64,000 nucleotides of DNA from Planctomycetota bacterium (GCA_039186605.1 JBCCZZ010000001.1:155252-219251); one strand, 5' to 3'; numbered from the stretch's first letter, positions 46,863 to 64,000 are shown. Program-made: numbers and translations. Notes: a model not told the origin generated them from the sequence alone.

Positions 46863-48116
46863 ATGGCCGACAAGCCGGACTTCTTGGTCGTCGGCGGCGG
46901 GATCATCGGTCTCGCGTGCGCGCACTATCTGCGCGCGCTCGGGGGCCGCGTCACAGTTATCGACCGCGGCACAATCGGTGGTGCTTGTTCGCACGGAAAC
47001 TGTGGGTACATCTGCCCAAGCCACGTGCTGCCTCTCACCGAGCCTGGAGCATTGGCGGAGGGCCTGCGGTCGTTGTTCGATCCCGGCGCGGCCTTCCGGA
47101 TACGACCTAGCCTATCTCCCGCGTTGTGGTACTGGCTCGCACAGTTCGGTTCGCGCTGTACGAAGAAGCAGATGATGCGAGCCGCGCCAGCGCTTAAGGC
47201 GATGCTTGATTCATCGATTGCTGAGTATCGTGATCTTGTCAGACAGGGAACGGTCGATGGCGAATGGGAAGACCGCGGCTTGCTGTACGTCTTCCGATCG
47301 GCATCGGCCCTGGACCGGTTCGGTGAGAAGGTCGCACTGATACGAGATTCGCTGGGCGTGTCTGCGACGAACATCAACCGTGAAGAGCTTCCCGATTTTG
47401 ATCCGGCTATACGGCCAGGCATGGCCGGTGCCTACCACTTCATGGGAGACGCATCCGTTAGGCCCGAGGCACTCATTTCGAGCTGGGCTGATACGCTGCA
47501 AGAAAAGGGTGTTGAACTGATTGAAGGCTGCGCTTTTGAAGGCCTCGATACCCATGCTGGGCGTATACGCGCGATTCGCACCGATCGAGGGAACATGCCC
47601 GCTGGTTCATTTGTGTTTGCGCTTGGCGCGTGGAGTTCGCAGTTCGCGAGCATACTCGGTTGCGCGATACCAATCCAGCCCGGCAAGGGCTACTCGATCA
47701 CGATGCGCAGGCCCGACGTATGTCCGATCCACCCGATGCTCTTCCCTGAAGAACACGTCGGGGTGAGCCCGTTCAGGGACGGCTACCGCCTGGGCTCGAT
47801 GATGGAGTTCGCCGGTTACGATGAGCACATACCAGAGCGCCGTATCCAACAACTTCGCCGGGCGGCAGAGCCATACCTGGTCGAGCCGCACAGCCCAGAC
47901 GAGATCGATCGATGGTACGGCTGGCGACCAATGACATGGGATAGCCTGCCGATCATCGGACGCCTCGACGAGCTGTCGAACGTGATTTTAGCGACGGGCC
48001 ACAACATGCTGGGAATCAGCATGGCTGCCGCGACGGGCCGATTGGTCGCGGAGATCGCGGCAGACAAAGTGCCCCACATCGATCCCAAGCCGTACTCGCC
48101 TGCACGGTTTCGATAG
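46863..48116 (+). CDS. FAD-dependent oxidoreductase (D-hydroxyproline/D-amino-acid dehydrogenase family)
   Basis: DFLVVGGGIIGLACAHYL dinucleotide-binding motif, DAO-family length (417 aa). Confidence 0.75.
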   Translation: MADKPDFLVVGGGIIGLACAHYLRALGGRVTVIDRGTIGGACSHGNCGYICPSHVLPLTEPGALAEGLRSLFDPGAAFRIRPSLSPALWYWLAQFGSRCTKKQMMRAAPALKAMLDSSIAEYRDLVRQGTVDGEWEDRGLLYVFRSASALDRFGEKVALIRDSLGVSATNINREELPDFDPAIRPGMAGAYHFMGDASVRPEALISSWADTLQEKGVELIEGCAFEGLDTHAGRIRAIRTDRGNMPAGSFVFALGAWSSQFASILGCAIPIQPGKGYSITMRRPDVCPIHPMLFPEEHVGVSPFRDGYRLGSMMEFAGYDEHIPERRIQQLRRAAEPYLVEPHSPDEIDRWYGWRPMTWDSLPIIGRLDELSNVILATGHNMLGISMAAATGRLVAEIAADKVPHIDPKPYSPARFR

Positions 48117-48233
48117 CGGTTTGCAGCCAGCTCGGGATCAGCGCTTATGGCACGGTACGATGGGTTTTCTGCGAGCACAACAATGTTCGTGTGCGAGTCC
48201 TAGGCTTGCTGCAAACCAGGCTCCTGAGAAGTT

Positions 48234-48268
48234 TTCCGGTGTAGCCCAGTGGTAGAACGTCAGCTTCT
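48234..48268 (+). pseudogene. tRNA-Gly-like 5' fragment (acceptor/D-arm/anticodon-stem part only)
   Basis: CCGGTGTAGCCCAGTGGTAGAACGTCAGCTTC is nearly identical to nt 3-35 of the intact tRNA-Gly at 52044, then diverges. No T-arm or 3' acceptor strand. Confidence 0.45.
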
Positions 48269-48348
48269 CAATGCACAGAAGCACGACTTTCACATATCAG
48301 AGTTCCCGCTCATGAGCTCTCAAATCTGATTTGCAGATTGAGCGTGGG

Positions 48349-51174: not shown

Positions 51175-51179
51175 TCCTG

Positions 51180-51821
51180 TCAGTCACGCGTCGACTCGAT
51201 CGCTTCACGCAGCCAGCCACGAGCGAAGGCCCATGTGCGTTTCACGGTGGGCTCCGAGACGTTGAGCACGAGCGCGGTCTGCTCGATGCTCAGCCCCGCA
51301 AAGTACCGAAGGCGGACGATCTGAGCCGATTTTGGATCCACACTCTCCAAGCGGAAGATCGCGTCGTGGAGGATCAGGAATCCCGCATTTTCGCACACAG
51401 AGGATGGGTCTGGCAGGGATGCCAGGTTCAGCGCGCATTTCCGAGCGTCAGGGCCACCTCGTTTCTTGGCCACTTTTGCGCGGGCGTGATCGATCAGGAC
51501 TTGCCTCATGGCCTCGGCAGCCGCTGCATAGAAGTGCGCCCGACCGGCCCACGGGACCTGCCTATGCCCGGCGAGTTTGAGAAAGGCCTCGTGGACCAAT
51601 GCGGTCGCCGATAGCGTGTGCCCTGGGTGTTCACTCGCCAGATGCCCACGGGCGGCCGCGCGAAGTTGCTCGAACACCAGTGGCAGGAGCGCATCCGCGG
51701 CTGCACGGTTGCCACCAGCGGCGGCGTTCATGAGGACGGTTGCATCCGTATATGAGCTGGCCCCGGACATGTTCTCCATTATGCTGGACGTGTGCGGCGA
51801 GCCTGGCGAGTTCGGCTTCAC
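51180..51821 (-). CDS. ECF-type RNA polymerase sigma factor (planctomycete STK-associated type)
   Basis: Sigma-2 region (ALVHEAFLKL) and sigma-4 HTH (LRYFAGLSIEQTALVLNVSEPTVKRTW). Immediately upstream of the kinase on the same strand. Confidence 0.85.
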   Translation of the reverse strand: MKPNSPGSPHTSSIMENMSGASSYTDATVLMNAAAGGNRAAADALLPLVFEQLRAAARGHLASEHPGHTLSATALVHEAFLKLAGHRQVPWAGRAHFYAAAAEAMRQVLIDHARAKVAKKRGGPDARKCALNLASLPDPSSVCENAGFLILHDAIFRLESVDPKSAQIVRLRYFAGLSIEQTALVLNVSEPTVKRTWAFARGWLREAIESTRD

Positions 51822-52043
51822 TCCGGTGCGGCAGATGGCGATCGCATTCGGCCTGGGAACTCAAAGAAATTCTAGCTTTGGGAGCTGACGTTCTGACTCG
51901 CGATACCGGCTGAGCGATGCTGGAGCGGGATTCGGCGCATACTCTGAAGAGCAACGTAGTAAAATGTCGCGCGATGTCGAGCGATTTTGCACGACTTCAA
52001 CCCAGAGGTCTTGTCGCCGTAAAATACCGTAGAATATTGACTT

Positions 52044-52116
52044 GCGGGTGTAGTTCAGTGGTAGAACGTCAGCTTCCCAAGCTGAATGTCGCCGGTTCGA
52101 CTCCGGTCACCCGCTT
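52044..52116 (+). tRNA. tRNA-Gly (anticodon CCC)
   Basis: GCGGGTG acceptor, D-arm TAGTTCAGTGGTAGAAC, anticodon stem-loop TCAGC-TTCCCAA-GCTGA, T-arm GGTTCGACTCC, 3' CACCCGC. Candidate promoter TTGTCG/TAGAAT immediately upstream. Confidence 0.85.
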
Positions 52117-53454
52117 TCCAGTTTCCGCCGATGCATGGGGGTGCGAGGCGGTGCTAAGCCCCGCGAATTGCAGCACTTCGCCATCGGTCGACTGACCGTC
52201 GTCCGCGGCTGTCTTGGTGCCGCCGAATGGCAGCGAAGCGCGGCCAACCGCACTGGAAAGCTGTGTGCGCGCTGCGCCAGGCGCTGCAACCCCGGGCAAG
52301 CCATCGATGGCTCTGGTGGTGTCGGACAGCCCCAGGACGGTGTAGTGCGACAGGGTGGTGCGGTAGTCGCTGTGCCGCATGATCTGCTGAGCCAGCTGCG
52401 GGGCCACGCCCGCCCGCGCGAGCGAGGTGCCCAGTGTGGTCCGCATCGCGTGAAAGTCGACGACGCGACCCTCGCTGTCGGTCTGCTTCAAGAAGTCTGA
52501 TGCCGAGCGGGTTTCGCGATCGTCTTCCGTCTCCGCTGCCTCGATCCATGCTTGACGGGCTCTATCGAGATCGCTGTAGAAGGTGCGGATCGTGGGCATC
52601 GTCTGGAAGACCGGGCTGTTCGGGTCGGGTGCCTCGGGGCGGATCGAGACCAGGGCGTCAACCGCGGCCAAGTGGAGCGGGATCACGTCCTCACGTTTGG
52701 CTTTGCCCACGCTGATGCGCACTCGAAGCGACCGCTGGTCGAGGTCCACGTCGCTCCAGGCGATCTTGCCCATCTCGCCTCGTCGCAGCCCAGTGAGTGC
52801 CGCCACGAGGTACACGACATGCCGCGGCGTGTACTTTCGCTTCGTGTGTCGTTGGTCCTCATGAACCGTCTGACCAATGAGCCAACTGAGTTCTTCAACG
52901 GACAAAGCGCGTCGCTGGCGGCGACGGTCGACCCGCTCTTCTGCCTTCGCCACTCGCGCCAGCGGGTTGCTGCGCAGCCGACCGGTCTTCACGCACCAGT
53001 TCATGAACGCGACGATGTCCTGACGGCGATGATTCACCGTTCGTGCCGCAAGCCCTTCTTTGCGCAGACCGTGGAGGTATCGCTCGAACGAGTTGGTGTC
53101 AAGATGAGCCAGTCGGGTCGCCCGCGACATCGAGACGAAGGCGTCGAGGTGATTGCGCTTCTGGCCGACTGTCCGGCCAGACATCCGCACGTGCTCGCAG
53201 TGCTCGTAGTACTCAGTCAGATGTTCCGCAAGGTCTCGATCGCCCTCACTCGCATATCGATCATCGTCGGCATTCGTGACGCCGAACCGACGACGCATGA
53301 CTTTGGACTCGAACTCCCGGGCAATCTCCTGGGTGACGGCCTTGTCGGTGCTGCCGGTGACGGTCCGGCGACGTCCGTGTTCGTCGGTATAGGCGATCAT
53401 CCACGGGCGGCCCTTCTTGCCCTTGTCGCAGGCTCGCTTGAAGATGCTGGCCAT
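52069..53454 (-). CDS. Tyrosine-type site-specific integrase (3' end overlaps the tRNA-Gly 3' half)
   Basis: C-terminal catalytic domain with the R...HxxR...Y pattern (HAMRTTLGT...IMRHSDYRTTLSHYT). No stop codon until inside the tRNA, as is typical for int genes that overlap their att site. Start taken at MASIF. Confidence 0.85.
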   Translation of the reverse strand: MASIFKRACDKGKKGRPWMIAYTDEHGRRRTVTGSTDKAVTQEIAREFESKVMRRRFGVTNADDDRYASEGDRDLAEHLTEYYEHCEHVRMSGRTVGQKRNHLDAFVSMSRATRLAHLDTNSFERYLHGLRKEGLAARTVNHRRQDIVAFMNWCVKTGRLRSNPLARVAKAEERVDRRRQRRALSVEELSWLIGQTVHEDQRHTKRKYTPRHVVYLVAALTGLRRGEMGKIAWSDVDLDQRSLRVRISVGKAKREDVIPLHLAAVDALVSIRPEAPDPNSPVFQTMPTIRTFYSDLDRARQAWIEAAETEDDRETRSASDFLKQTDSEGRVVDFHAMRTTLGTSLARAGVAPQLAQQIMRHSDYRTTLSHYTVLGLSDTTRAIDGLPGVAAPGAARTQLSSAVGRASLPFGGTKTAADDGQSTDGEVLQFAGLSTASHPHASAETGKRVTGVEPATFSLGS

Positions 53455-53455
53455 C

Positions 53456-53668
53456 TCACGCGTCCTTGTCTTGGTACGCAACCACAAGCCCCAGGTACTC
53501 GGCGAGGGCGTCGACGTACCGGAGCGAGAGACTGCTCTTCTTGTTCACGAATCTGGAGAGCAGCGATTGGTCGATGCCGGTGTCCTTGGCGATCCGGTAC
53601 TGGCTCTCGTCGGCCTTGATCACGGCTGCTCGAAGCTGATCGCTGAGTGACAGTTTCTTGCGAGGCAT
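53456..53668 (-). CDS. Small HTH DNA-binding protein (XRE/excisionase-like)
   Basis: 71 aa. LRAAVIKADESQYRIAKDTGIDQSLLSRFVN is an HTH. Immediately upstream of the integrase. Confidence 0.55.
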   Translation of the reverse strand: MPRKKLSLSDQLRAAVIKADESQYRIAKDTGIDQSLLSRFVNKKSSLSLRYVDALAEYLGLVVAYQDKDA

Positions 53669-53969
53669 GGCTGTTCCTAATACATGACTATTTGTCAAGT
53701 ATATGTGCTGTATGCAAGCTTGGCAATGACCAGGCTGCCCGGTAGGGCAACCCGGCCTGTCGAGGCCTGAGAGGCGTTGAGATGCCCTCAGAGGCCACTG
53801 GGCACCGGGCAGGGCACATGGCGTGGGCCAGGGCCGTGCACGGGCAGGCACGCGTACAGCGGCACTGCCGTTGCCCCATTGGCCATGTACACAGGTTCCC
53901 TTTCCAGCGCCAAGGGCCCTGGGTACCGCGTGTCATTGCGTGCACCCCGGGCCCCACCCAGCCCCGGGG

Positions 53970-56159
53970 CTAGAACCCAAGCCTGGGGGCGTTGGGCAGC
54001 AGCCGAACGCCGCGATAGACGCGGTACCGGCTTTCCTTGCTGCCCCGCTGTGACACCGATACCTCCGGATGAGCTGCGAGCAGATCACGTCCAAAGGTCT
54101 GAACTGGCGTGGGGTGATCGATCCCGACTCGTTCGCACCAGGCGCGGTACGAGCCATGCAGATCCGTCACTGACGTCTCCGCACCATCCGTCAGATCGCA
54201 ACACTCTTTGACGAACGTGGATACGGGGCTCGCGAGCTCGGTGAGCATGCCAAGGGCTTCCTCACCCGCACGAGGCTGGATGAACTTACCTCGCTCGTAG
54301 AGCCGACGCCGCCCTTCCATTGCCCAGATCAGGATGCCGGGTAGATCGGCGAGTAGCCGGTCTGTCAGCCGGGTGTCTTCCTTTCCCAAGAACGACTTCT
54401 TGAGCGACAGAACGATGAAACGCTGCGCAAGAGCACCACTCGAATCTTGCAGCCGAGGGAGTTCGTTGGACATGATGATCAACCGAGACTGCAGCGTGAC
54501 TGTGATGGTCTCCTTGAACTTTCGGTTCACGGTCAACGCGTCCTCGCCGCTGATGCTCAGCAGACGTTCGGCGATCTGACCAACCGCGGCACCTCGTTGG
54601 ATGCGGGCATCGGAGATGATTGCCAGAATCGCGTTGAGCAATGGAGCAAGCCCGAACTCGCCACCAAGACTCGAGAGCGTCGGGCCCTTCACACTCTGGT
54701 TCCCGAGAAGACCACGAATCACACGAGCAATAGTGCCCTTTCCAGATCGCGGCGGCCCGACGATGAGAAGCATCTTGTGGAACCGCACATCCGGAGTCAG
54801 GCAGAGCCCGATGAATTCCTGGAGAACGCCCATCTGCTGGGTGTCTCCATCGAAAATATCATCGAGGAAATCGAACCATGCGGTGGGTGGGCCTGCTCCG
54901 GGGTCGTAGTCCATCGGGGCGTGGTAGGTACAGAAGAACTGAGGCGTTGCGGGCACAAGCATCCCGCTCTGGACATCAACCAGACCGTTTCGAGCGGGAA
55001 GCAGTTGTTTGGCCGGTACGCTTGCTGAACGGGCATCGAGCCACTCATGAGTCCCGCGATCAATCTCGCGGTGTCTCAAACGACTCAATGCATGCCTGAC
55101 TCGCTCGATCAGCGCTTTGTCGGGCTTGAGCAAAGTTCTTGCGGGCCCACCTTTGACCTTGGACGCTACCTTCAGCTTGGCCAGGTAGAGGTACAGCTCT
55201 TTCTCGATGTGGGCACTCTCAATGACTCGATAGCTTCCTTCTGTGTACGCATAGAAGTCGCCTGCGTAGTAGACAAGTGTCGGATCTCCCCGAAGGGTGT
55301 ACTTGGCGTTGAGGAACCCCAGTGACAGCTGAAGCACATCACGCGGGTCGGACACACGCTCGTCTCCCTCCCCGGTGATGTACTCAGCAAGGACGTCGAG
55401 ACCGCCGGCCTTTGAGCTTGCTAGGACCAAGAGCTCATCCAGGGTGTGCCCGGCCTCAAGCCAATCAGACACATCTTGTTTGTTCTCAAGGCCGTCGAGC
55501 AACAGGATCGAGACGGACGCAACGCCCGCTCTTTGCAGCTGCTCAAACACGGTCATTGCGTATCGGAAGCCAGCAATGTCGTGATCAGGCACGATGCATA
55601 CCCGCCGACCCATCAGATTCGAGAGATCGGTGAGGTGCGGGGATGACGCGCCGCCGAGTGTCGTAGTGGCTACGCCACCGAGGTCGTTGATGTTCTCAGC
55701 GTCCTTCTCGCCCTCGACAAAGAAGACAGTCTCGGCGTGATCTGCCCTCATAATCCCGCGCAGATTGAACGGGATTCGATCAGTACCACCAAGACCATCA
55801 ACCCGGCCTTCTGGTGTCGTCCGTTCAATGGCGAAATGCTTGTTTGGGTATCTGACCACCCAGTACGCGATATCGCCGTCCTCGTCCTCGTATGGCCACG
55901 CATTCACGTAGTCATCGCGAACACCAGGGAACGAACCGAGATCACTCTCAGTCAGGCCGAGAGCAGCCAAGACCTTGCCGCGCGAACAGCCTGCGTGACA
56001 CTTGACGTGGACGCGATCGCCGCACACGCCGGCCCAAAAACTCGGTCGCTGATCATCGTGACCTGGCACGGGGCAGCGACCACGGATAAACGTGCCGTCT
56101 GGGCTCCACGTCACATCTTCAATTCGCGATGCGATTCGATCGAGAGTTGAGTGATTCAC
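53970..56159 (-). CDS. DNA primase/helicase, phage/plasmid P4-type (zinc-binding N-terminus, TOPRIM, D5_N-like, P-loop NTPase)
   Basis: CxxH...C...C zinc module (CPVPGHDD...HVKCHAGC), TOPRIM acidic blocks (VFFVEGEKDAENIN, IVPDHDIAG) and Walker A LLIVGPPRSGKGT. A GTG at 56159 overlaps the AlpA-like stop (GTGA). Confidence 0.8.
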   Translation of the reverse strand: MNHSTLDRIASRIEDVTWSPDGTFIRGRCPVPGHDDQRPSFWAGVCGDRVHVKCHAGCSRGKVLAALGLTESDLGSFPGVRDDYVNAWPYEDEDGDIAYWVVRYPNKHFAIERTTPEGRVDGLGGTDRIPFNLRGIMRADHAETVFFVEGEKDAENINDLGGVATTTLGGASSPHLTDLSNLMGRRVCIVPDHDIAGFRYAMTVFEQLQRAGVASVSILLLDGLENKQDVSDWLEAGHTLDELLVLASSKAGGLDVLAEYITGEGDERVSDPRDVLQLSLGFLNAKYTLRGDPTLVYYAGDFYAYTEGSYRVIESAHIEKELYLYLAKLKVASKVKGGPARTLLKPDKALIERVRHALSRLRHREIDRGTHEWLDARSASVPAKQLLPARNGLVDVQSGMLVPATPQFFCTYHAPMDYDPGAGPPTAWFDFLDDIFDGDTQQMGVLQEFIGLCLTPDVRFHKMLLIVGPPRSGKGTIARVIRGLLGNQSVKGPTLSSLGGEFGLAPLLNAILAIISDARIQRGAAVGQIAERLLSISGEDALTVNRKFKETITVTLQSRLIIMSNELPRLQDSSGALAQRFIVLSLKKSFLGKEDTRLTDRLLADLPGILIWAMEGRRRLYERGKFIQPRAGEEALGMLTELASPVSTFVKECCDLTDGAETSVTDLHGSYRAWCERVGIDHPTPVQTFGRDLLAAHPEVSVSQRGSKESRYRVYRGVRLLPNAPRLGF

Positions 56160-56386
56160 GCGCCACCTCGCTGTCCCCACTCAGCGCGGATGAACGTGTC
56201 GATTGTGGACTTGCGCCAGCGACGAATTCGCTTCGTCGCAACATCTGGAGGAGGAAACTGTCCTTGGGACCTACGCGACTGCAGAGTTCGCTTGCCAATC
56301 TTGAGGTACCGGGCGATCTCGTGGAGTGTGAGAAAACAGTCTTCAACCCCGTCGTGGGCTTCGTAGCCCAAAATCTGACTTGTCAT
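56156..56386 (-). CDS. AlpA/MerR-like phage-type HTH regulator (excisionase-like)
   Basis: FLTLHEIARYLKIGKRTLQSRRSQGQFPPP is an AlpA-family HTH_17 signature. About 76 aa. Confidence 0.6.
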   Translation of the reverse strand: MTSQILGYEAHDGVEDCFLTLHEIARYLKIGKRTLQSRRSQGQFPPPDVATKRIRRWRKSTIDTFIRAEWGQRGGA

Positions 56387-57165
56387 TCGAGTGATTCCAT
56401 GGCAACCGCAGCGGGCCATAACGAGCTGTCGCGACCCGCTGCCCGGTGTCTTTCACCGGTAGCCAGACACGATTCAACGGCAACAGCTCACGAACATGAA
56501 GATGATCGTTGAGCGTCGTCGCATTGCTGCGTTGAGAGGTTGGAATCAGTGAGGCACCGGAGCTTTGGAACGGGCTCCAAGACCGGAAGTTCAGGCAGTC
56601 ATCCGATTGATACGACGCAAAAAGGCCGCTGAAGACTGGTCCGTACCGCCGGGGTGTGGTCCCGATGTATCCAGCGTAGCGATGACTGCCAGGTAGTCAA
56701 GACCAGGTTTGGTGGCGGCACCCCGATGCGCGAAAAAGCACCAAGATTCATGCTCGGTATCAATCTACGTTGCTGGGGATCTGTAGGTCGGCAATCCGGC
56801 CAAGGGGCGGTGAGCTGGCGCGACGGGTGTTTAGCCAATACCCTTGAGGTGCGGGAGTTGCTGGGCAGCGTGCCCCGGCCCGCTTGGACATGAAGGAGCC
56901 ACGAACCTGAGCCTGGCCCGGGCTGAACGGGCCGACATCCGAACGACGCGCGAGCGTCTTTGCTGCTTCCGGAGAAACCGCCAACCTGGGCTTCGGCCCT
57001 TGAACAGGAATGGCAGCACTGGTGCCGCGCCCCCGTATGGGGGTGTCGGCCATGTGTTGTCTTCCTGTGCCCCTTGGCGGGGGCCTCCGGAGCAGCCATG
57101 GTTCGGCGCCTCCTTTTTTGGTGGACCGAACCTGCCGGCTCAGCAGCTCCGCAGGAGGTACCGCC

Positions 57166-57984
57166 ATGACACATGATCGAGTTGCCGTTGCCCTTGTTGC
57201 TGTCGCCATTGCGATCACCGGCTGTGAACGAGAGGAAGAGTCGCAATCTGCAGACAAGCGAAGGTCTATTCCCCTTGGTGTGACCGAAGAGCGAGTCGAT
57301 GACACGAGAACTCCGGCCGGCCTCCGGAACACACCCATTGCGCCAGGGATACGCCAGCCCGAACAGTCAGCACCGGCAGCCGAAGAGCTGAGCGAACCGG
57401 AGTACATACGAGTTGGTCGCGTTCGCGGCTTTCCGTATGCGGGCGTCAGGCGATGGGAAGTCCGAATCGAGATCCAGCCAGGGCACACTCGCGACGAAGT
57501 GGGATCAATCATCGAAACTGCTGCACGAGATGCCATCGCCCAGTACGGGGGAAAGGCTGCCGATGTGCTAGCCTTCGCACCGGGTGACGACACGAGCGGA
57601 ATGGCTACCATCGGCCAAGGCGTGTTTGCTCCCAATGGCAGGTGGGGAGATGCCGCCAAGGATGCGCCGATGGCGTTTCAGCTAACCGGACTACGCGACG
57701 AGTACTTCCGTACTCCGGATGGGCTCGACCGCTGGGCAGTCGGAACCACCGTCACATTGCGGAGTTCGGGTGATCGGGCAATCCGGGTGTCCAACAGTCG
57801 TGATCGATGGGATTCAGAAAGCGAGATTGCCGCTGTGACGCCAGGCACCGAAGCTTTGATCATGCAGCGGTACGTGACGCCGATTGCCTCTGATATGGAG
57901 CTGATCCGATACGAGGTGGAATTAGAGCGCGAAGGCCAGACGATTCGTGGCTGGGTCAGCCAATGGGCCGTGGAAGGCTCCTGA
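57166..57984 (+). CDS. Hypothetical lipoprotein
   Basis: Lipobox AIAITGC after a hydrophobic signal. GGAGG SD 7 nt upstream of the ATG. No recognisable domain. Confidence 0.5.
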   Translation: MTHDRVAVALVAVAIAITGCEREEESQSADKRRSIPLGVTEERVDDTRTPAGLRNTPIAPGIRQPEQSAPAAEELSEPEYIRVGRVRGFPYAGVRRWEVRIEIQPGHTRDEVGSIIETAARDAIAQYGGKAADVLAFAPGDDTSGMATIGQGVFAPNGRWGDAAKDAPMAFQLTGLRDEYFRTPDGLDRWAVGTTVTLRSSGDRAIRVSNSRDRWDSESEIAAVTPGTEALIMQRYVTPIASDMELIRYEVELEREGQTIRGWVSQWAVEGS

Positions 57985-57994
57985 TCGTGAGTAC

Positions 57995-58969
57995 CTAGCT
58001 ATCTGCTCCGGTACCACTTTCATTTTGCCACTCGCGGAATGTCGTACTTGTCCCGGCAACGCGCCACTCCTTGCGCCCGTTTGCATTGCGCGCCATGATG
58101 ACTGATGCCGCAGCGCTGGGACTCGCGAAAGGGACATCCTGACCGAACACGAAAAGTTCAGGATCATCGTCAGGGGTGAGCTTGCCTGCTTCGATCAGTT
58201 GCTCGCGAAGCCCCTTGTAGCTGGTCCACGACTCGACACCTTCACGTCGAGCGGTTGACCCCACAGAGACAACGAACTCACCGTCGATCTCACGCGCTCG
58301 CGCCGAGGCACCGACTCGATTCAGCTCGAAGATGGGTGAGCTTGACGCCAGCTCGCTCGGACCAGCCTCGACCGATGGGCGCTCGTGTAGGAAGGAGAAG
58401 CCGATCGCGGGCAGCACAAGCCGCATCTGGTCCAGAAACCCCTCCATATCAGCGATCTCCGACTCTGGAAGCGGAGGTGGCACTGGAGCCGCGCTGTTCA
58501 TCAATCGCGCGCGACCGGCTTTGCTGATCATGTCGATCAGGCGGCTCTCGAGATAACGCCCGTGAGCCTTCGTGATGTTGTCGTCCTTACTCACCACGAT
58601 GACCGTTCGAGACCAGAAGTCCTTCGAGTCGTCCTTGTCGTGGTGGGCGAGGCGCGTGGCGACACTGTCACCTTCACCGACGTACACGGCGTCTTGGCCA
58701 GTTGTGTCGGGGTCCGGGCCGACCAGGAGGTACACACCTGTCCGACGAGCTTCCTCTCGCTTTGCAGCATCAGCGAGCTGTGAGCGAGGTACGACCAAGA
58801 CCTTGCCGGTCCAGTTGATGATCTCGGCCGTCAACGTGCCGGTTGCGGTCCCGTCAACCAGATAGAGGCGGATGGTCTTGCCCTTCACAGTGAGAGCATA
58901 GCCGATAGATCTCAGGGTTCTGAAAACCAAACAAAGATCGTACAAATTGGACTTAGCCAGCGACATCGC
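57995..58969 (-). CDS. GIY-YIG/T5orf172-like nuclease-domain protein with C-terminal extension (possible DUF4357)
   Basis: GVYLLVG...AVYVGEGDSVATRLAHH fits the GIY-YIG core. Its position next to a type I R-M module is typical for this architecture. Confidence 0.45.
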   Translation of the reverse strand, partial: AMSLAKSNLYDLCLVFRTLRSIGYALTVKGKTIRLYLVDGTATGTLTAEIINWTGKVLVVPRSQLADAAKREEARRTGVYLLVGPDPDTTGQDAVYVGEGDSVATRLAHHDKDDSKDFWSRTVIVVSKDDNITKAHGRYLESRLIDMISKAGRARLMNSAAPVPPPLPESEIADMEGFLDQMRLVLPAIGFSFLHERPSVEAGPSELASSSPIFELNRVGASARAREIDGEFVVSVGSTARREGVESWTSYKGLREQLIEAGKLTPDDDPELFVFGQDVPFASPSAAASVIMARNANGRKEWRVAGTSTTFREWQNESGTGADS

Positions 58970-59282
58970 ACAATTTTTGAAAAGTAGCACCGCTACACAT
59001 TCGTAAACTTGACTCTGAGTTGTGATTCAGTATGGTTGTAGGGGGACTACTGCCTCCAAAATGACAAACGCCCGGTGCGACAACACCGGGCGAGTAGATC
59101 CTTGAACGAGGCCGAGTAGGCCGGACGCACAGGACCAGCTACGGGCATTCAACCGTCCGCCGGTGCGTCGGTCAAGTCTCGGCCGCAGAGATGAAGGGAG
59201 GTCGCTCCCAGCCGAGACAGAACGAGTGCCGTCAGACCTGGCGGCTCCTTCCCGATCGATTCACCTGACTGGAGGCACAACC

Positions 59283-59579
59283 ATGCCCACCACCTCGAGC
59301 GTCGCGAGCGAGATCGACGCACACATTCACAAGTGCGGAGGCGGATACCAGAGCTGGTACATCGGCATCGCGGCCGATCCCCGTGCCCGCCTCTTCGCCG
59401 ACCACAACGTCGCCGAGAACGGGGACGCCTGGATCTTCCGGGATGCCGGCACCGACGCCGCCGCCCGTCAGATCGAGGACCACTTCCTCCGCCTCGGATG
59501 TCGTGGCGGCGATGGTGGCGGCAGCTCCGCCACCAAGTACGTCTACGCGTACAAGATCAACTCGCACACCCGCGAGTAG
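59283..59579 (+). CDS. Small hypothetical protein with GIY-YIG/T5orf172-like motif (98 aa)
   Basis: Strong GGAGG SD. GGGYQSWYIGIAADPRARLFADH resembles the GIY...YIG...R...H motif. Confidence 0.35.
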   Translation: MPTTSSVASEIDAHIHKCGGGYQSWYIGIAADPRARLFADHNVAENGDAWIFRDAGTDAAARQIEDHFLRLGCRGGDGGGSSATKYVYAYKINSHTRE

Positions 59580-59624
59580 TAAGCACCCTCCCGTCGGCGG
59601 GCGGAAACGCCCGCCGACGCATTC

Positions 59625-60227
59625 ATGACCACACGAACAGCACAACTCGACCAGATCGCCGAGGTCTTCAGCGGTCATTACGAGAAAGGCGCTGGAAGTG
59701 ACGATCCCGCCGGTACGCATCGGCTGGTGTTCATCGCATCGATCGACCCCGCGCCAGATCATGCTCTGATCCGTCAGAGCTGCCCCCGATTCATGCCCAA
59801 GAAGGCCCCTGGCAGAGCAGTTCTCGAGCATGGTGATCTGCTGGTCCCCGCCCGTGGTGATCGATTGCACATCGCCATTATCGAGCATCCTGATGACCGC
59901 CGTCCGCTCGTGGCGGCGTCCTTCCTCCACGTAGTGAGGCCGAGGGCTGATGACCTTGATCCATATTACCTCCGTTGGTGGATTGAGTTCGGCGCTCGTG
60001 AGCGACTGCAGCAGGGCATCCAGGGCAGCAACATTCCGACGCTATCGATCAAGGTACTGCGGACTGTGGCGGTCCCGATCCCACCTCTCGATATCCAGCG
60101 TCGCATCGCCGAATTTCACGCCCTCACTGTCCGCGAATCCCAGATCATGACCGACCTGCGTGATACGAGATCGCAATTGAACAACGCCCTCGCACTCCAG
60201 GTCGCCACAGGAGCCGTCCACGCATGA
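59625..60227 (+). CDS. hsdS: Type I restriction-modification specificity subunit, half-size (single target-recognition domain)
   Basis: LDQIAEVFSG...GDLLVPARG and terminal conserved block VPIPPLDIQRRIAEF, typical of HsdS TRD plus conserved region. 200 aa. Confidence 0.55.
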   Translation: MTTRTAQLDQIAEVFSGHYEKGAGSDDPAGTHRLVFIASIDPAPDHALIRQSCPRFMPKKAPGRAVLEHGDLLVPARGDRLHIAIIEHPDDRRPLVAASFLHVVRPRADDLDPYYLRWWIEFGARERLQQGIQGSNIPTLSIKVLRTVAVPIPPLDIQRRIAEFHALTVRESQIMTDLRDTRSQLNNALALQVATGAVHA

Positions 60228-61741
60228 GCCAGACCAAGCACACCAGACCGCAGATCTCCAACGCAGTGTGGGCCGCGTGCGACACGTTCCGAGGCGCTGT
60301 CGACCCGGCGAACTACAAGAACTACGTCCTCACCATGCTCTTCCTGAAGTACCTCTCCGACATGATGCTCGACCGCCGGGACGAGCTGCTGGAGAAGTAC
60401 AAGGGCGACGAGGCTCGCGTCGAGCGTGCCCTCCGAAACGAGCGGTTCGTGCTCCCGGCGGGCTCCGACTTCCGCGACCTCTACACGAAGCGGGATGCCG
60501 ACAACATTGGTGAGCTGATCAACATCGCCCTGGCCGAGCTCGAGGACAACAACAAGGCCAAGCTCGAGAACGTCTTCAGCAACGTTGACTTCAATAGCGA
60601 GGCCGAGCTTGGCGAGACCCGCGAGCGAAACGTGCGTCTCAAGAACCTGCTGGAGGACTTCAACAAGATCGACTGCCGCCCATCACACCTCGATGGCCGA
60701 GACACGATCGGCGACGCGTACGAGGAGTTGATTGGCTGGTTCGCCGCTGGTGCTGGAAAGAAGGCTGGCGAGTTCTATACGCCGCCGGCCGTGTCGACAC
60801 TCCTCGCCAAGCTGCTCAAACCCGAGGAGGGTGCCCGCATCCTCGACCCCGCCTGCGGCTCGGGCTCGCTGCTCATCAAGGTCGCCCGCGAGGTCGGCTC
60901 GGACAACTTCGCCGTCTTCGGCCAGGAGTCCAACGGCTCCACCTGGGCCCTGTGCAAGCAGAACATGTTCCTGCACCGCATGGACCAGGCCCGCATCGAG
61001 CGGTGCGACACGCTCCGCTCACCCAAGCTCCTCGACAACGACGAGCTCATGCGGTTCGACATCGTCACCGCCAATCCCCCGTTCAGTCTCGACAAATGGG
61101 GCCAGGAGGACGCCGAGAAGGACCGCTTCAACCGCTTCTGGCGGGGCGTGCCGCCTAAGAGCCGGGGCGACTACGCGTTCATCAGCCACATGATCGAGAC
61201 CGCCCTGGAGGGGCACGGCCGCGTCGGCGTCATCGTGCCTCACGGCGTGCTCTTCCGCTCGGGGGCTGAGGGCCGCATCCGCCGCAGGCTCATCGAGGAC
61301 AACCTGCTCGACCTCATCGTCGGGCTGCCGCCCAACCTCTTCTACGGCACCGGCATCCCCGCCGCAATCCTCATCTTCGACAAGTCGCGGAAGGGGAACA
61401 CCAAGCAGGACACAGTCCTCTTCATCGACGCCAGCCGCGAGTTTGAGCAGGGCACCAACCAAAACCGTCTGACCGAGGACAACATCCAGAAGATTCTCGC
61501 GACCTACGAGGCATACGAGAGCGTCGAGAAGTACGCCCACGCCGCGACGGCCGAGGAGCTCGCCGCGAACGACTTCAACCTGAACATCCCGCGGTATGTC
61601 GACACCTTCGAGGACGAGGAGGAGATCGACATCGAGGAGACGCAGACCGAGATCGAGCGGCTTGAGAACGAGCTGACCGAGGTCCGCGGCAAGATGGCGG
61701 CAACGCTGAAGGAGCTTGGGCTTGCGACCAACATTGCCTGA
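60224..61741 (+). CDS. hsdM: Type I restriction-modification N6-adenine DNA methyltransferase subunit
   Basis: HsdM N-terminal domain (NYKNYVLTMLFLKYLSD), AdoMet-binding ILDPACGSGSLL, and catalytic DIVTANPPFS. Confidence 0.9.
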   Translation: MSQTKHTRPQISNAVWAACDTFRGAVDPANYKNYVLTMLFLKYLSDMMLDRRDELLEKYKGDEARVERALRNERFVLPAGSDFRDLYTKRDADNIGELINIALAELEDNNKAKLENVFSNVDFNSEAELGETRERNVRLKNLLEDFNKIDCRPSHLDGRDTIGDAYEELIGWFAAGAGKKAGEFYTPPAVSTLLAKLLKPEEGARILDPACGSGSLLIKVAREVGSDNFAVFGQESNGSTWALCKQNMFLHRMDQARIERCDTLRSPKLLDNDELMRFDIVTANPPFSLDKWGQEDAEKDRFNRFWRGVPPKSRGDYAFISHMIETALEGHGRVGVIVPHGVLFRSGAEGRIRRRLIEDNLLDLIVGLPPNLFYGTGIPAAILIFDKSRKGNTKQDTVLFIDASREFEQGTNQNRLTEDNIQKILATYEAYESVEKYAHAATAEELAANDFNLNIPRYVDTFEDEEEIDIEETQTEIERLENELTEVRGKMAATLKELGLATNIA

Positions 61742-62957
61742 ATCCTGGAAGTGGTGTCACCTCGACGATGTCGCGACGGTCCAGACGGGTCTTGCTCTCG
61801 GCAGGAAGGATCTGAAGGATGCCGTCGAGCGTCCGTACCTTCGCGTCGCGAATGTGCAGGATGGATACTTCGACCTCCGCGAGGTGAAGACCGTTCGTGT
61901 CGAACGCAGTAAGGTTGCGAGGCACTCCCTTCGGTACGGCGATGTTCTCCTCACCGAGGGCGGCGACTTCGACAAACTCGGACGCGGACACATCTGGCGT
62001 GATGAGGTTGCGGAGTGTCTACACCAGAACCATGTGTTCGCGGTTCGCCCGGACGATTCTGTCTTGCTGCCCGAATACCTCGCCGCAATCACCAGTGGGC
62101 CGTGGGGCCGGGCCTACTTCCTCGGGTGCTCAAAGCAGTCGACTAACTTGGCGAGCATCAACTCGACACAGGTCAAAGAGATGCCTCTGCCGCTGCCACC
62201 GCTCGACGAACAGAGTCAGATCGTTGACCGACTCACCCAGTTTGACGAGGCGAGCACATGCTTGGAGGAACTGACCGAGCACCGTCGCCAGTACCTCCGC
62301 GGCCTGATGCAGCAGCTCCTGACCGGCCGCCGCCGCCTCCCGGCGTTCGCGGGCGAGGCGTGGGATGAGGATCACCTCGGTGATCTGTTCGGTGAGCGTG
62401 CTGAAACCGGCCGGGCCGACCTGCCTCTTCTCTCCATCACCGCCGAGCGTGGCGTGATTCCTCGGGAGGAGATCGAGCGGAAGGACACTTCCAACGCGGA
62501 CAAGTCCAAGTACAAGCGGATCGCCCCCGGCGACATTGGCTACAACACAATGCGGATGTGGCAGGGCGTGTCGGCACTGTCGAGCCTGGAGGGCATCGTC
62601 AGCCCCGCGTACACGATCTGCATCCCGGGACCGAAGGTCGACGGCCGCTTCGCTCGCTGGTTCTTCAAGTTCCCGCGTGTGGTCAACCTGTTCTACCGAT
62701 ACTCGCAGGGCTTGGTGGACGACACCCTGAACCTCAAGTACCCGCACTTCGCCGAGATCAAGGTTAGTGTGCCGACCTTGCTCGATGAGCAGCGTGCCAT
62801 CGCCGACATCCTCGACACCGCTCAACGCGAGATCGAGCTGCGCGAACAGCTCCGCGAGCAGATCCAGCTCCAGAAGCGTGGCCTGATGCAGAAGCTGCTG
62901 ACCGGCGAGATCCGCGTGCCCGCCGACGAGCCTGTCACCGAGGAGGTGTCGACATGA
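61716..62957 (+). CDS. hsdS: Type I restriction-modification specificity subunit (two TRDs)
   Basis: LPESWKWCHLDDV start, central MPLPLPPLDEQSQIVDRL conserved repeat, second TRD, and terminal coiled-coil conserved region. Confidence 0.85.
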   Translation: MGLRPTLPESWKWCHLDDVATVQTGLALGRKDLKDAVERPYLRVANVQDGYFDLREVKTVRVERSKVARHSLRYGDVLLTEGGDFDKLGRGHIWRDEVAECLHQNHVFAVRPDDSVLLPEYLAAITSGPWGRAYFLGCSKQSTNLASINSTQVKEMPLPLPPLDEQSQIVDRLTQFDEASTCLEELTEHRRQYLRGLMQQLLTGRRRLPAFAGEAWDEDHLGDLFGERAETGRADLPLLSITAERGVIPREEIERKDTSNADKSKYKRIAPGDIGYNTMRMWQGVSALSSLEGIVSPAYTICIPGPKVDGRFARWFFKFPRVVNLFYRYSQGLVDDTLNLKYPHFAEIKVSVPTLLDEQRAIADILDTAQREIELREQLREQIQLQKRGLMQKLLTGEIRVPADEPVTEEVST

Positions 62958-64000
62958 CGACATCAGAGCTGCTCGACTTCAACGACGCGATCAAGCAATG
63001 CAACAAGTCTCCACACGCCTTGCTCGGCAACGGCTTCAGTGTGGCCTGCCGGCCCAATCTGTTCAACTACAGCCGTCTTCTGGACCAGGCAAACCTCACC
63101 GATCGCCCACAGGCACGCGAGGCATTCGACCGGCTCGGCACGACGGACTTCGAGATCGTGATGAACGGCCTCTCCCGGGCCGCTGAGCTTGCAGACGTGT
63201 ACGGCACCTCTGATGGGTCACTCGCCGACCGATTCCGCGAGGATGCCGAAGCCCTGAAAGAGGTCCTCGTTCAGACGATTGCCGGGACGCACCCTGACCT
63301 GCCCAAGGCGATCACTGACGGGGAGTGTGCGGCAGCGAAACGCTTCTTGTCCAACTTCCGTGGACGGGGCGACAAGCAGAAGATCTACCTGCTCAACTAT
63401 GACCTGTTGACCTACTGGGCGTTGATGCGGTCCGATGTCGAGCCGCAGCTTCAGTTCGACGACGGGTTTCGGCAGCCGGAGAACGGTCCCGAAGACTGGG
63501 TCGTGTGGGAATCGAACCGCCACAGCCAAGATCTCTTCTACCTTCATGGCGGCCTGCACATCTACCAGTCCGGTCCGGAGATCCGGAAGTTCACTTGGTG
63601 CAACACCGGCTTGCCGCTGATGGATCAGATCCGTGGGGCTCTCGACGAGAACCGGTTCCCGCTTTACGTCGCCGAAGGCACATGGCGGGACAAGATGACG
63701 CGGATCCGCCGGAGCGATTTCCTCGGCCGCGGCCGACGTAGCTTCCGACAGATCGGTGGCACGCTCTTCATCTACGGAATGTCAATGAGTGACAACGATG
63801 ACCACATCCTGCACGCCATAGCGGCTGGCAAGGTTGAGCAGCTCTTCGTCTCTGTGTACGACGATATCGGCAGCGAGGTGAATCAGGAGCTCGTAAGCCG
63901 CGCGTTGACCTTGCCAGATCGGCGAGCGACAGCAGGTGGTACAAATCCAAAGCCGCTCGAGATCAAGTTCTTTGATGCAGAGTCCGCTCAGGTATGGAGC
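62954..64000 (+). CDS. DUF4917/SIR2-like domain protein (partial, runs off window end)
   Basis: AGGAGG SD. ATG overlaps the hsdS TGA. The N-terminal LLGNGFS...FDxL block is the SIR2-like/DUF4917 signature. No stop codon before the window end. Confidence 0.5.
   Translation, partial: MTTSELLDFNDAIKQCNKSPHALLGNGFSVACRPNLFNYSRLLDQANLTDRPQAREAFDRLGTTDFEIVMNGLSRAAELADVYGTSDGSLADRFREDAEALKEVLVQTIAGTHPDLPKAITDGECAAAKRFLSNFRGRGDKQKIYLLNYDLLTYWALMRSDVEPQLQFDDGFRQPENGPEDWVVWESNRHSQDLFYLHGGLHIYQSGPEIRKFTWCNTGLPLMDQIRGALDENRFPLYVAEGTWRDKMTRIRRSDFLGRGRRSFRQIGGTLFIYGMSMSDNDDHILHAIAAGKVEQLFVSVYDDIGSEVNQELVSRALTLPDRRATAGGTNPKPLEIKFFDAESAQVWS

What the first reader, a model, noticed from the sequence alone, without database searches (positions are those of the whole stretch)
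52044..64000. Integrase-bearing genomic island inserted at tRNA-Gly(CCC)
The tRNA is followed immediately by a tyrosine integrase whose 3' end overlaps the tRNA 3' half. Downstream are an XRE-like HTH gene, a P4-type primase/helicase with an AlpA-like regulator (GTGA-coupled), a lipoprotein, GIY-YIG-like genes and a type I R-M/defence module. The right end (attR, expected as a 3' tRNA repeat containing GGTTCGACTCCGGTCACCCGC) is beyond the window.
Basis: partly seen in the sequence, partly recalled or inferred. Interest (0 to 1): 0.55.

Follow-up and report, generated by a model that had tools for sequence, protein, structure and literature searches.

The report
Defence island in tRNA-Gly, split integrase
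This is a real but fairly ordinary 19.6-kb mobile island inserted in a glycine tRNA gene of a marine planctomycete; it carries anti-phage genes, and its integrase gene is cut short when the island is inserted.

Summary
tRNA-Gly(CCC) lies at 52044-52115. A tyrosine integrase gene on the minus strand (52069-53454) overlaps its last 47 nt. Behind it lie an HTH_3 regulator, a P4-family primase-helicase, an AlpA-like HTH_17 gene, a lipoprotein, two candidate defence genes (PDC-S14 and DUF4917/PDC-S21) and a type I R-M system.

The source contig was not retrievable. A 9.4-kb contig from the same sample (L017) matches the window end exactly over 1696 nt and runs 7.7 kb further. It adds HsdR, YgjP, TetR, a hydrolase and an epimerase. 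It ends in a direct repeat of tRNA positions 29-57 (28/29 identical). That repeat is the predicted attR, so the island is about 19.6 kb.

First, the integrase ORF spans attP. In the excised circle it would gain 72 codons from the far end of the island, ending in a helix motif (AWPxLPxxIRxxIxxLV) that eight homologues carry at their extreme C-terminus. Integration therefore truncates Int, as in phage Mx8. Second, a displaced 5' half of the tRNA (48233-48271) lies upstream. It fits family members that insert on the 5' side.

Verdict: new member of a known kind. The empty-site test was impossible.

The parts
48233..48271 (+). Displaced 5' half of a tRNA-Gly (positions -2 to 37, ending at the 3' edge of the anticodon loop). 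A relic, not part of the present island.
   Evidence: 39 nt, 87% identical to 52042-52080 (repeat finder D1). The 30-nt core has blastn-short E=2e-7.
51866..51894 (-). Inverted, degenerate copy of tRNA positions 20-47 (anticodon arm and variable loop), 150 nt upstream of the tRNA. Unexplained relic or secondary site.
   Evidence: 21 nt, 90% complementary to 52063-52083 (I4; E=0.048). Extends to 29 nt with one gap. Borderline significance.
52044..52115 (+). tRNA-Gly(CCC), the integration target; this is attL.
   Evidence: ARAGORN; Rfam RF00005 at 72.7 bits.
52072..52115 (+). att identity block: tRNA positions 29-72, from the last 2 nt of the 5' strand of the anticodon stem to the 3' end. Presumed to be the element-derived part of the tRNA.
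   Evidence: Positions 29-57 recur 28/29 at L017 9336-9364, where that contig ends. The sister element L010 keeps a fragment of positions 27-72.
52069..53454 (-). Tyrosine integrase, integrated (truncated) form, 461 aa. The last 15 codons are antisense to the tRNA. The stop is TGA at tRNA positions 26-28, just outside the identity block.
   Evidence: Pfam Phage_integrase and SAM-like domains; PHROG_1 integrase 2e-44. The HxxR, H and Y motifs align to Tn1549 Int, PDB 6en0. Frame and stop verified.
53456..53668 (-). HTH_3 (Cro/CI-type) regulator, 70 aa. Its stop lies 1 nt before the int ATG.
   Evidence: Pfam HTH_3 7e-6; PHROG repressor-type hits. A 48%-identical homologue sits in the same position in L010.
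53970..56159 (-). Primase-helicase: Toprim-like N-terminal part plus a D5/P4-type SF3 helicase C-terminal part.
   Evidence: DUF5906, D5_N and Pox_D5; TIGR01613 P4-family primase C-terminal domain above its cutoff; PHROG_6088 DNA primase 8e-95; PDB 7ola, deposited as 'DNA primase'.
56156..56386 (-). AlpA-like HTH_17 protein, a candidate excisionase or activator. Its TGA stop overlaps the primase GTG start (GTGA).
   Evidence: Pfam HTH_17 1e-7; PHROG_66 'excisionase and transcriptional regulator' 7e-8; sequence.
57166..57984 (+). Predicted lipoprotein, 272 aa, cargo of unknown function.
   Evidence: Lipobox AITGC after a hydrophobic N-terminus. No hit in Pfam, PHROGs, PADLOC or NCBIfam.
57995..58990 (-). 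DUF4357 protein, matching the PADLOC candidate defence gene PDC-S14.
   Evidence: Pfam DUF4357 1.5e-16; PADLOC PDC-S14 2.8e-116; PHROG_12629 3e-86.
59283..59579 (+). Small ORF of about 99 aa with no known family.
   Evidence: GC3 0.87 in this frame. No family or structure hit.
59625..60227 (+). Single-TRD HsdS-like protein, first gene of the R-M cassette.
   Evidence: Methylase_S 4.5e-6; PADLOC Specificity_I. Conserved at 61-70% ahead of HsdM in L002, L003 and L005-7. Similarity to those loci starts sharply at 59608-59625.
60224..61741 (+). HsdM, the type I methyltransferase.
   Evidence: N6_Mtase 1.7e-100 and HsdM_N; PADLOC MTase_I.
61716..62957 (+). HsdS, the specificity subunit with two TRDs. 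The TRDs are variable between relatives.
   Evidence: Methylase_S, two stretches; PADLOC Specificity_I 7.5e-68. The TRD region is not alignable at DNA level with relatives.
62954..64000 (+). DUF4917 protein, matching PADLOC candidate PDC-S21, embedded between HsdS and HsdR. Cut by the window end; 351 aa in full.
   Evidence: Pfam DUF4917 3.6e-67; PADLOC PDC-S21 2e-110. The full protein is P0363 / MEM9064034.1.

Best explanation
A 19.6-kb integrative island sits in the tRNA-Gly(CCC) gene of a marine Planctomycetota (Phycisphaerae-like) genome.

Backbone: tyrosine integrase, a small Cro/CI-type HTH, a P4-family primase-helicase and an AlpA-like HTH.

Cargo, mostly anti-phage:
- PDC-S14.
- A type I R-M system: single-TRD S, HsdM, HsdS, embedded DUF4917/PDC-S21, HsdR and YgjP.
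- A lipoprotein.
- A TetR, hydrolase and epimerase trio.

Mechanism. Steps 1 and 2 are read from the sequence. Steps 3 to 5 are inferred.
1. The island carries a copy of tRNA positions 29-72. Recombination at or near the anticodon loop rebuilt the tRNA (attL, 52044-52115) and displaced the original 3' part to the far end (attR, window-equivalent 71640 onward).
2. The integrase ORF runs antisense through this block. In the integrated state it stops at a TGA supplied by the part of the tRNA that the island did not bring (positions 26-28), giving 461 aa. In the excised circle the same frame continues for 72 codons into the distal arm, giving 533 aa. That extension ends in a helix motif that homologous integrases carry at their extreme C-terminus.
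3. Integration therefore changes the integrase C-terminus, as in Myxococcus phage Mx8 (IntP/IntX). This probably biases the enzyme towards stable maintenance.
4. The HTH_17 protein probably acts as recombination directionality factor or activator, and the HTH_3 protein as repressor.
5. The primase-helicase probably replicates the excised circle. How the island moves between cells is unknown: no capsid, relaxase or conjugation genes were found.
For: Gene identities.

Extension and attR:
- L017 is 100% identical to window 62305-64000 and extends 7.7 kb further.
- L017 9336-9364 equals tRNA positions 29-57, 28/29, E=7e-10, in direct orientation, 19,568 bp downstream of the same block in the tRNA.

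Integrase reading frame:
- The in-silico attP gives one 533-aa ORF.
- Its 72-aa extension matches the extreme C-termini of P0117 (E=1.7e-5), P0094 and P0056.
- The motif aligns across five sequences with invariant L, A, W and L.
- Five more full-length forms were found among 141 further homologues.
- In L008 the same motif follows an antisense tRNA-3'-like fragment in frame.

Family regularity:
- 37 of 120 homologues carry the antisense tRNA-coded peptide in the same frame. 29 of them end exactly at the tRNA's TGA.
- Looked-up homologues abut tRNA-Gly(TCC) with the same 47-nt overlap (L008, L013-15) or read through it (L009, L011).
- Sister element L010 has the same primase, HTH_3 and int order (Int 54% identical) and keeps a tRNA-Gly(CCC) fragment of positions 27-72.

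Cargo turnover:
- Gabija-like genes in L009, a type ISP enzyme in L010, and a different type I R-M in L013.
- This R-M cassette is 80-92% identical in L002, L003 and L005-7, but in other contexts.

Composition: island GC is 0.58-0.62 against 0.64-0.67 for 1-40 kb, with a larger tetranucleotide distance.
Against: - The extension comes from a different assembly (Logan contig of SRR22824305) than the window. It stops inside the repeat, so the last 15 nt of attR and the host flank beyond it are unseen.
- No empty site or excised circle was observed, so mobility is inferred.
- The compositional shift begins around 42 kb, not at the tRNA.
- A 72-codon open frame at this GC content would occur by chance about 9% of the time (my estimate). 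The argument therefore rests on the conserved motif, not on openness.
- The window's own integrase protein is not in the protein collection although its neighbours are. This could mean the depositors' annotation treats it as a pseudogene.
Confidence: 0.85

Rival explanations
1. Larger element with tRNA-dependent integration. Here the mobile unit would be 48272 to about 71640 (23.4 kb). It would have split a host tRNA-Gly at a 9-nt core in the anticodon loop, leaving the 5' half at 48233-48271 and the 3' half at attR. The element would carry its own intact tRNA-Gly(CCC) next to int to compensate, as in mycobacteriophage 'tRNA-dependent lysogeny' (PMC10865867).
For: - The upstream 5' half ends at position 37 and the downstream fragment starts at position 29, so they overlap by just 9 nt (GCTTCYCAA).
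- The ECF-sigma and Ser/Thr-kinase segment between them is island-like in composition: GC 0.598, tetranucleotide distance 0.22.
- A precedent exists.
Against: - The distal flank of attR continues the integrase frame through the 3' block of the tRNA next to int and encodes the family's C-terminal motif. In the circle, therefore, attR's flank joins that tRNA block, not the flank of the upstream fragment.
- In homologues the int-adjacent tRNA borders core genes directly, for example smpB, frr, pyrH, tsf and rpsB in L009. This is the standard configuration.
- The 5' fragment is more diverged (5/39) than attR (1/29).
- A weak 22-nt direct repeat links the attR flank with the int-side flank (p about 0.03), not with the flank of the 5' fragment.
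Confidence: 0.07
2. Fixed relic. The region arose by integration but is now immobile, a domesticated defence locus. The integrase, primase and regulators would be retained by chance or for other roles.
For: - No excision product or empty site was seen.
- The window's integrase is absent from the protein collection although neighbouring genes of the same genome are present.
- tRNA-fragment relics around the locus show old, decayed events.
Against: - All backbone ORFs are intact and full length against homologues.
- The catalytic HxxR, H and Y motifs are present.
- attL and attR differ at only 1 of 29 positions.
- The 72-codon distal extension is still open and keeps the motif.
Confidence: 0.2
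3. Phage satellite. The int, AlpA and P4-family primase backbone would mark a helper-dependent satellite (P4-like or PICI-like) that hijacks a Phycisphaerae phage for transfer and carries defence genes against competitors.
For: - It has the backbone triad typical of P4-like satellites and PICIs.
- The helicase part matches PDB 7ola, deposited as 'DNA primase'. From memory only, I take that entry to be the SaPI5 replication protein.
- The defence cargo sits in a variable slot, as described for P4-like elements. That comparison is from my own knowledge, not tested here.
Against: - No capsid-redirecting, packaging (terS) or Psu/Sid/Delta-like gene was detected. The only unassigned backbone-side proteins, the lipoprotein and the 99-aa ORF, have no PHROG hit.
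- There are no relatives in IMG/VR.
Confidence: 0.15

Closest known systems
tRNA-gene-integrated genomic islands as defined by Islander (Williams 2002; Hudson et al. 2015, PMC4383910)
   Same: A tyrosine integrase lies next to an intact tRNA gene. A displaced 3' tRNA fragment lies in direct orientation at the far end. The identity block starts at the anticodon arm. The length is 19.6 kb.
   Different: The integrase belongs to a Planctomycetota clade with at most 55% identity to anything retrieved, and only about 22% to any phage integrase in GenBank phages.
Myxococcus phage Mx8 IntP/IntX: attP inside the int ORF (Tojo et al. 1996, cited in PMC4383910 and PMC6070905)
   Same: The int ORF extends across attP, so integration at a tRNA gene replaces the 3' end of int and changes the protein's C-terminus.
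   Different: No detectable sequence relationship: no Mx8 hit at E<=1e-5. Here the integrated form is shortened by a stop codon inside the tRNA. The element is a primase-bearing island, not a phage. The functional consequence is untested.
P4-like satellites and PICIs with defence hotspots
   Same: Integrase, AlpA-type HTH and a P4-family (TIGR01613) primase-helicase, with variable anti-phage cargo.
   Different: No Psu/Delta/Sid, packaging or capsid genes. The host is a planctomycete. No helper phage is known.
Elements that recombine with the 5' part of a tRNA gene (Zhao & Williams 2002, cited in PMC6563490)
   Same: The upstream 5' fragment (48233-48271) and the family members whose tails are sense translations of tRNA-Gly (P0028, P0033, P0067, P0374, P0395, P0460) fit this rarer configuration.
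   Different: In the window only the displaced fragment remains. There is no integrase and no tail remnant on that side.
tRNA-dependent lysogeny (Guerrero-Bustamante & Hatfull 2024, PMC10865867)
   Same: [quoted passage not shown]
   Different: The attR flank is joined in frame to the int-adjacent tRNA block, so the tRNA is rebuilt in the standard way. See the first rival explanation.

Membership tests
tRNA-integrated genomic island (Islander criteria) | Tyrosine integrase gene inside the candidate interval | tested here: met
   Phage_integrase 5.8e-17; catalytic motifs aligned to Tn1549 Int.
tRNA-integrated genomic island (Islander criteria) | Intact tDNA at one end and a cognate tDNA fragment at the other, in the same orientation, with the 3' fragment downstream | tested here: met
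   tRNA at 52044-52115. Positions 29-57 recur 28/29 on the + strand at L017 9336-9364, which is window-equivalent 71640-71668. Only 29 of the expected 44 nt are visible because the contig ends.
tRNA-integrated genomic island (Islander criteria) | Length between 2 and 200 kb | tested here: met
   19,568 bp from block to block.
tRNA-integrated genomic island (Islander criteria) | Absent from the same site in related genomes (empty attB) | not testable with these tools
   The source genome and close relatives are not in the scanned collections. The next-best homologue of the flanking DAO enzyme is 61% identical.
P4-like phage satellite | Integrase, AlpA-type regulator and P4 alpha-type primase | tested here: met
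   (TIGR01613 at 161.6 bits, cutoff 108.7).
P4-like phage satellite | Capsid-size and helper-exploitation genes (psu, delta, sid, epsilon) | tested here: not met
   No Pfam, PHROG or NCBIfam hit of that kind in any island ORF.
Mx8-type integrase spanning attP | The int ORF continues across the att core, so integration changes its C-terminus | tested here: met
   In-silico attP gives 533 aa against 461 aa when integrated. The extension carries a family-conserved C-terminal motif. This is shown in silico only.
Mx8-type integrase spanning attP | Sequence homology to Mx8 IntP | tested here: not met
   tblastn against 50,697 phage records gave only Salinibacter phage and two unnamed phage hits at about 22%. 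There was no Mx8 hit at E<=1e-5.
Type I restriction-modification system | HsdM, HsdS and HsdR all present | tested here: met
   HsdM and HsdS are in the window. HsdR (1103 aa; HSDR_N, SWI2_SNF2, T1R_D3) is on L017 1690-5001.
tRNA-dependent lysogeny | attP and attB share only about 10 bp, the tRNA is not rebuilt, and the element brings a replacement tRNA | tested here: inconclusive
   The two half fragments overlap by 9 nt. However, attR shares at least 29 nt with the int-adjacent tRNA, and its flank is in frame with int, which favours standard rebuilding.
   Pfam at E<=5 gives only DUF4357. No PDB sequence match. The AlphaFold single-sequence model is unusable, pLDDT 37. A GVY...YVG motif is visible by eye only.

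The most novel reading that the evidence does not exclude
The island belongs to a large integrase family. A search with P0117 (42% identical to the window's Int) found 677 cluster representatives at E<=1e-30. The named relatives are Planctomycetota MAGs. In this family the gene would be a state sensor. The ORF is built as catalytic core, then linker, then the att block itself (translated), then a short C-terminal helix (AWPxLPxxIRxxIxxLV). The complete protein can therefore be made only from the excised circle, and every integration truncates it at a stop codon inside tRNA-Gly. Members use the same anticodon-loop site in either orientation, carrying either positions 29-72 (antisense through int) or positions 1-37 (sense through int). 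In this window both halves of the tRNA-Gly(CCC) gene may therefore be element-derived.
Probability: 0.4. Interest if true: 0.55.

Novelty: new member of a known kind. Interest (0 to 1): 0.4.

Why it matters
The finding adds a precisely bounded, defence-carrying integrative element for Planctomycetota. I did not search the literature for such elements in this phylum.

It gives concrete predicted attL, attR, attP and attB sequences for tRNA-Gly(CCC). Those could seed integration tools for these hard-to-manipulate bacteria.

The integrase family offers many independent cases of an int gene spanning attP, in both orientations relative to the tRNA. That makes the Mx8-style question directly testable: does integration itself reprogram the integrase? 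The test is to compare the 461-aa and 533-aa forms.

It also shows one type I R-M cassette, with an embedded DUF4917 gene, moving between unrelated contexts in marine Phycisphaerae.

Tried and rejected
- Finding the source contig. The genome contigs and metagenome-contig scans with the DUF4917 fragment found only 84-90% relatives. The 571-kb NCBI contig is known only through protein records and could not be fetched.
- Exact-protein look-ups failed for HsdS (two starts), Int-461 and HTH_3. I did not try the 472-aa form of Int.
- A fused DUF4917+YgjP query returned only DUF4917 hits. The source protein was recovered instead through the listing of cluster members, and that led to L017.
- IMG/VR has no relatives of the primase or the integrase.
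- An empty-site comparison was impossible, because there is no close host relative.
- A single-sequence AlphaFold model of PDC-S14 was unusable, pLDDT 37, so no fold search was run.
- Arm-type site hunt. I found only one weak 22-nt direct repeat shared by the two attP arms (L017 9252-9273 and window 52267-52288, 19/22, p about 0.03).
- There are no tandem repeats or iterons of note in the island. No sigma-70-like promoter or terminator was found around the tRNA.
- No integrase remnant lies left of the tRNA in the window. The frame after the 5' fragment closes after 19 codons without the tail motif (read from the sequence).
- The larger-element (tRNA-dependent) model was considered and disfavoured; see the rival explanations.

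Full report
**1. Checking the observation**

ARAGORN and Rfam both find a single tRNA in the window, tRNA-Gly(CCC) at 52044-52115 on the + strand. Directly to its right, on the minus strand, lies an ORF (52069-53487) that matches the Phage_integrase catalytic domain and SAM-like N-terminal domains. Its HxxR, H and Y motifs align with Tn1549 Int. The likely start is the ATG at 53454, one base after the stop of the preceding HTH gene. A sister locus has the same arrangement. The ORF overlaps the last 47 nt of the tRNA, and its TGA stop is the complement of tRNA positions 26-28.

- an HTH_3 protein;
- a primase-helicase with D5_N, DUF5906 and Pox_D5 domains that passes NCBI's 'phage/plasmid primase, P4 family' model;
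- an HTH_17 (AlpA-like) protein whose TGA overlaps the primase GTG (GTGA at 56156-56159);
- a protein with a lipobox;
- a DUF4357 protein;
- a type I R-M set, followed by a DUF4917 gene cut by the window end.

PADLOC files the DUF4357 and DUF4917 proteins as candidate defence genes PDC-S14 and PDC-S21. Only the label 'GIY-YIG-like' could not be verified. Upstream of the tRNA are an ECF sigma factor, a Ser/Thr kinase with TPR repeats, and a hydroxyproline-catabolism cluster.

**2. Getting past the window end**

No second copy of the tRNA 3' end exists in the window. The source genome is in neither scanned collection. A homology search with a flanking enzyme returned a 100% match annotated in an NCBI 'Planctomycetota bacterium' MAG, on a 571-kb contig. 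The cluster listing of the best DUF4917 hit contained that genome's own protein, MEM9064034.1.

Looking this protein up gave L017, a 9364-bp contig assembled from run SRR22824305. L017 is 100% identical to window 62305-64000 and continues 7.7 kb beyond it. The continuation carries the rest of DUF4917, then HsdR (1103 aa), a YgjP-like metallopeptidase, a TetR regulator, an alpha/beta hydrolase and an NAD-dependent epimerase.

Its last 29 bases (9336-9364) are GCTTCCCAAGCTGAATGTCGTCGGTTCGA. This is tRNA positions 29-57 with one mismatch, in direct orientation (E=7e-10). The distance from the same block in the tRNA is 19,568 bp. The contig stops inside the repeat, so the last 15 nt and the host flank are unseen.

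**3. The integrase gene spans attP**

The gene called on the minus strand at the end of L017 (9117-9362) is in the same frame as the integrase C-terminus. I joined the distal arm (L017 up to 9335) to the identity block and the int side, as in an excised circle. That gives a single ORF of 533 aa instead of 461.

The added 72 residues end in ...ELALLIEAWPALRTEIRTAVLALVAAARSGG. This segment matches the extreme C-termini of three homologous integrases: P0117 (E=1.7e-5), P0094 and P0056. The motif L..LI.AWP.LP..IR.GI.ALV aligns across five sequences. A full HMMER scan with P0117 found 677 representatives at E<=1e-30. Among the 141 new sequences listed, five more carry the motif at their C-terminus. 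In L008 the motif follows an antisense tRNA-3'-like fragment in frame.

In all these full-length forms, a peptide that is a translation of a tRNA gene lies between the catalytic domain and the motif. Conversely, 37 of the first 120 homologues carry the antisense peptide xEPxTFSLxx. Of those 37, 29 end exactly there: FSLGS* for tRNA-Gly(CCC) and FSLEG* for tRNA-Gly(UCC). The fixed frame across so many lineages argues that translation through the att block is selected.

So this family's int gene contains attP, and integration shortens the protein. The situation is known from Mx8 and SSV-type integrases (PMC4383910, PMC6070905). The protein is not detectably related to Mx8 IntP. What the shortening does is inference. 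By analogy with Mx8, it would alter activity after integration.

**4. Related elements**

Looked-up homologues (41-55% identical) lie next to tRNA-Gly genes with the same geometry. L009 and L010 share the HTH_17, primase and int backbone (L010 also the HTH_3) but carry other defence cargo: Gabija-like OLD/UvrD genes in L009 and a type ISP enzyme in L010. L013-15 carry a different type I R-M with an AAA_25 helicase instead of the primase.

L010 has no intact tRNA. It does have a tRNA-Gly(CCC) fragment covering positions 27-72, with anticodon CCC. This confirms the extent of the identity block in a sister element. It may be the middle site of a tandem array.

The R-M cassette of the window starts sharply at 59608-59625. 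It recurs at 80-92% identity in a Phycisphaerales MAG, another Planctomycetota MAG and Tara Oceans contigs, next to McrBC or a serine recombinase, with diverged HsdS target-recognition domains. Backbone and cargo therefore travel separately, as expected for a defence island.

**5. Relics on the other side of the tRNA**

A 39-nt copy of the tRNA's 5' half (positions -2 to 37, 87% identical) lies at 48233-48271. That is 3.8 kb upstream of the tRNA, just left of the kinase and sigma-factor pair. An inverted, degenerate copy of positions 20-47 lies at 51866-51894, with borderline significance.

A standard island does not leave a 5' fragment. Two explanations were weighed.

(a) The mobile unit runs from 48272 to attR, splits a host tRNA at a 9-nt core, and brings its own tRNA, as in tRNA-dependent lysogeny (PMC10865867). 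The in-frame join between the attR flank and the int-adjacent tRNA block speaks against this. So does the standard configuration in homologues, where core genes abut the tRNA.

(b) The fragment is the trace of an earlier element that recombined with the 5' part of the tRNA. This configuration is rarer (PMC6563490). The same integrase family contains such members. Their tails are sense translations of tRNA-Gly (GVAQLVERQLPKLNVAGSSP...). Full-length forms (P0374, P0395, P0460) leave the tRNA sequence right after the anticodon loop, exactly where the fragment at 48271 ends. L008 even keeps a decayed integrase on the 5' side of its tRNA.

I favour (b). However, no integrase or tail remnant survives on that side of the window's tRNA, so it stays an inference. 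The kinase and sigma-factor segment is island-like in composition.

**6. Composition**

GC is 0.64-0.67 for 1-40 kb. It falls to about 0.60-0.62 from 42 kb, and to 0.58-0.62 in the island. The tetranucleotide distance to the host part rises from 0.12-0.19 to 0.21-0.30. This supports foreign origin but gives no sharp boundary at the tRNA.

**7. What it is not**

No capsid, packaging, Psu/Sid/Delta, relaxase or conjugation gene was found. It therefore cannot be filed as a P4-like satellite, PICI or ICE, although the backbone resembles the first two. Its route between cells is unknown.

**8. Verdict**

The predicted attR exists and the island is about 19.6 kb. As an object it is a new member of a well-known kind. 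The added value is threefold: the Mx8-like split of the integrase gene, which is conserved across a large family (the named relatives are Planctomycetota MAGs) and occurs in both orientations; the precise att sequences; and the relic showing that this tRNA gene has been hit from both sides.

Noticed in passing
window 48233-48271: Displaced 5' half of tRNA-Gly (positions -2 to 37, 87% identical to the live gene) lies 3.8 kb upstream of the tRNA. The ECF sigma factor and Ser/Thr kinase pair (48349-51821) lies between the two. Possibly the trace of an earlier element that recombined with the 5' part of the tRNA.
   Followed up: partly
window 51866-51894 (- strand): Inverted, degenerate copy of tRNA positions 20-47 lies 150 nt upstream of the tRNA (21 nt at 90%, E=0.048; 29 nt with one gap). 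Together with 48233-48271 it brackets the kinase and sigma-factor pair as imperfect inverted repeats. No explanation.
   Followed up: partly
window 59608 and 62305-62334: The short-read contigs of SRR22824305 break exactly where the R-M cassette begins (L001 starts at 59608) and inside the variable part of hsdS (L001 ends at 62334; L017 starts at 62305). L001 also differs from the window at 2 of 2727 bases. This suggests more than one context or variant of the cassette in that sample.
   Followed up: no
L009 457-5706; L010 970-4389; L013 579-6390: Sister elements with homologous integrases carry other defence cargo. L009 has an OLD-like TOPRIM/AAA_15 gene plus a UvrD helicase (Gabija-like) and a DEAD/ResIII helicase. 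L010 has a type ISP R-M enzyme. L013 has a different type I R-M system.
   Followed up: partly
L008 11782-11973 (- strand) and 20491-20649 (+ strand): A decayed integrase fragment, 75% identical to residues 326-389 of the window's Int, lies on the 5' side of L008's tRNA-Gly. A stand-alone 52-aa ORF carrying the integrase tail motif follows an antisense tRNA-3'-like fragment 9 kb away, among transposases.
   Followed up: partly
L005 3800-3825 (- strand): A tRNA-Gly-like 3' fragment (26 nt, 88%, E=0.004) lies 2 kb upstream of the homologous R-M cassette in a Tara Oceans contig. That copy may therefore also ride on a tRNA-Gly island.
   Followed up: no
window 52069-53454: The window's own integrase was not returned by the homology search (best hit 55% identical) and was not found by exact look-up. 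Neighbouring proteins of the same MAG are in the collection. The public annotation may have dropped it or marked it as a pseudogene, perhaps because it overlaps the tRNA.
   Followed up: no
window 52267-52288 and L017 9252-9273: A 22-nt direct repeat (19/22, GCGCGCTGCGnnnGGCGCTGCA) lies on both sides of the att block as they would sit in attP. A weak candidate for arm-type integrase binding sites (p about 0.03 against shuffles).
   Followed up: partly
window 42000-52000: GC content and tetranucleotide signature already drift towards island-like values from about 42 kb. That covers the hydroxyproline-catabolism genes as well as the kinase and sigma-factor pair.
   Followed up: no
window 59625-60227 and homologues in L002, L003, L005-L007: A single-TRD HsdS-like gene always precedes hsdM in this cassette, in addition to the full two-TRD hsdS. 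DUF4917 always sits between hsdS and hsdR. Some relatives have extra unknown genes there (575-580 aa in L002 and L005; 438 aa in L003 and L007).
   Followed up: no
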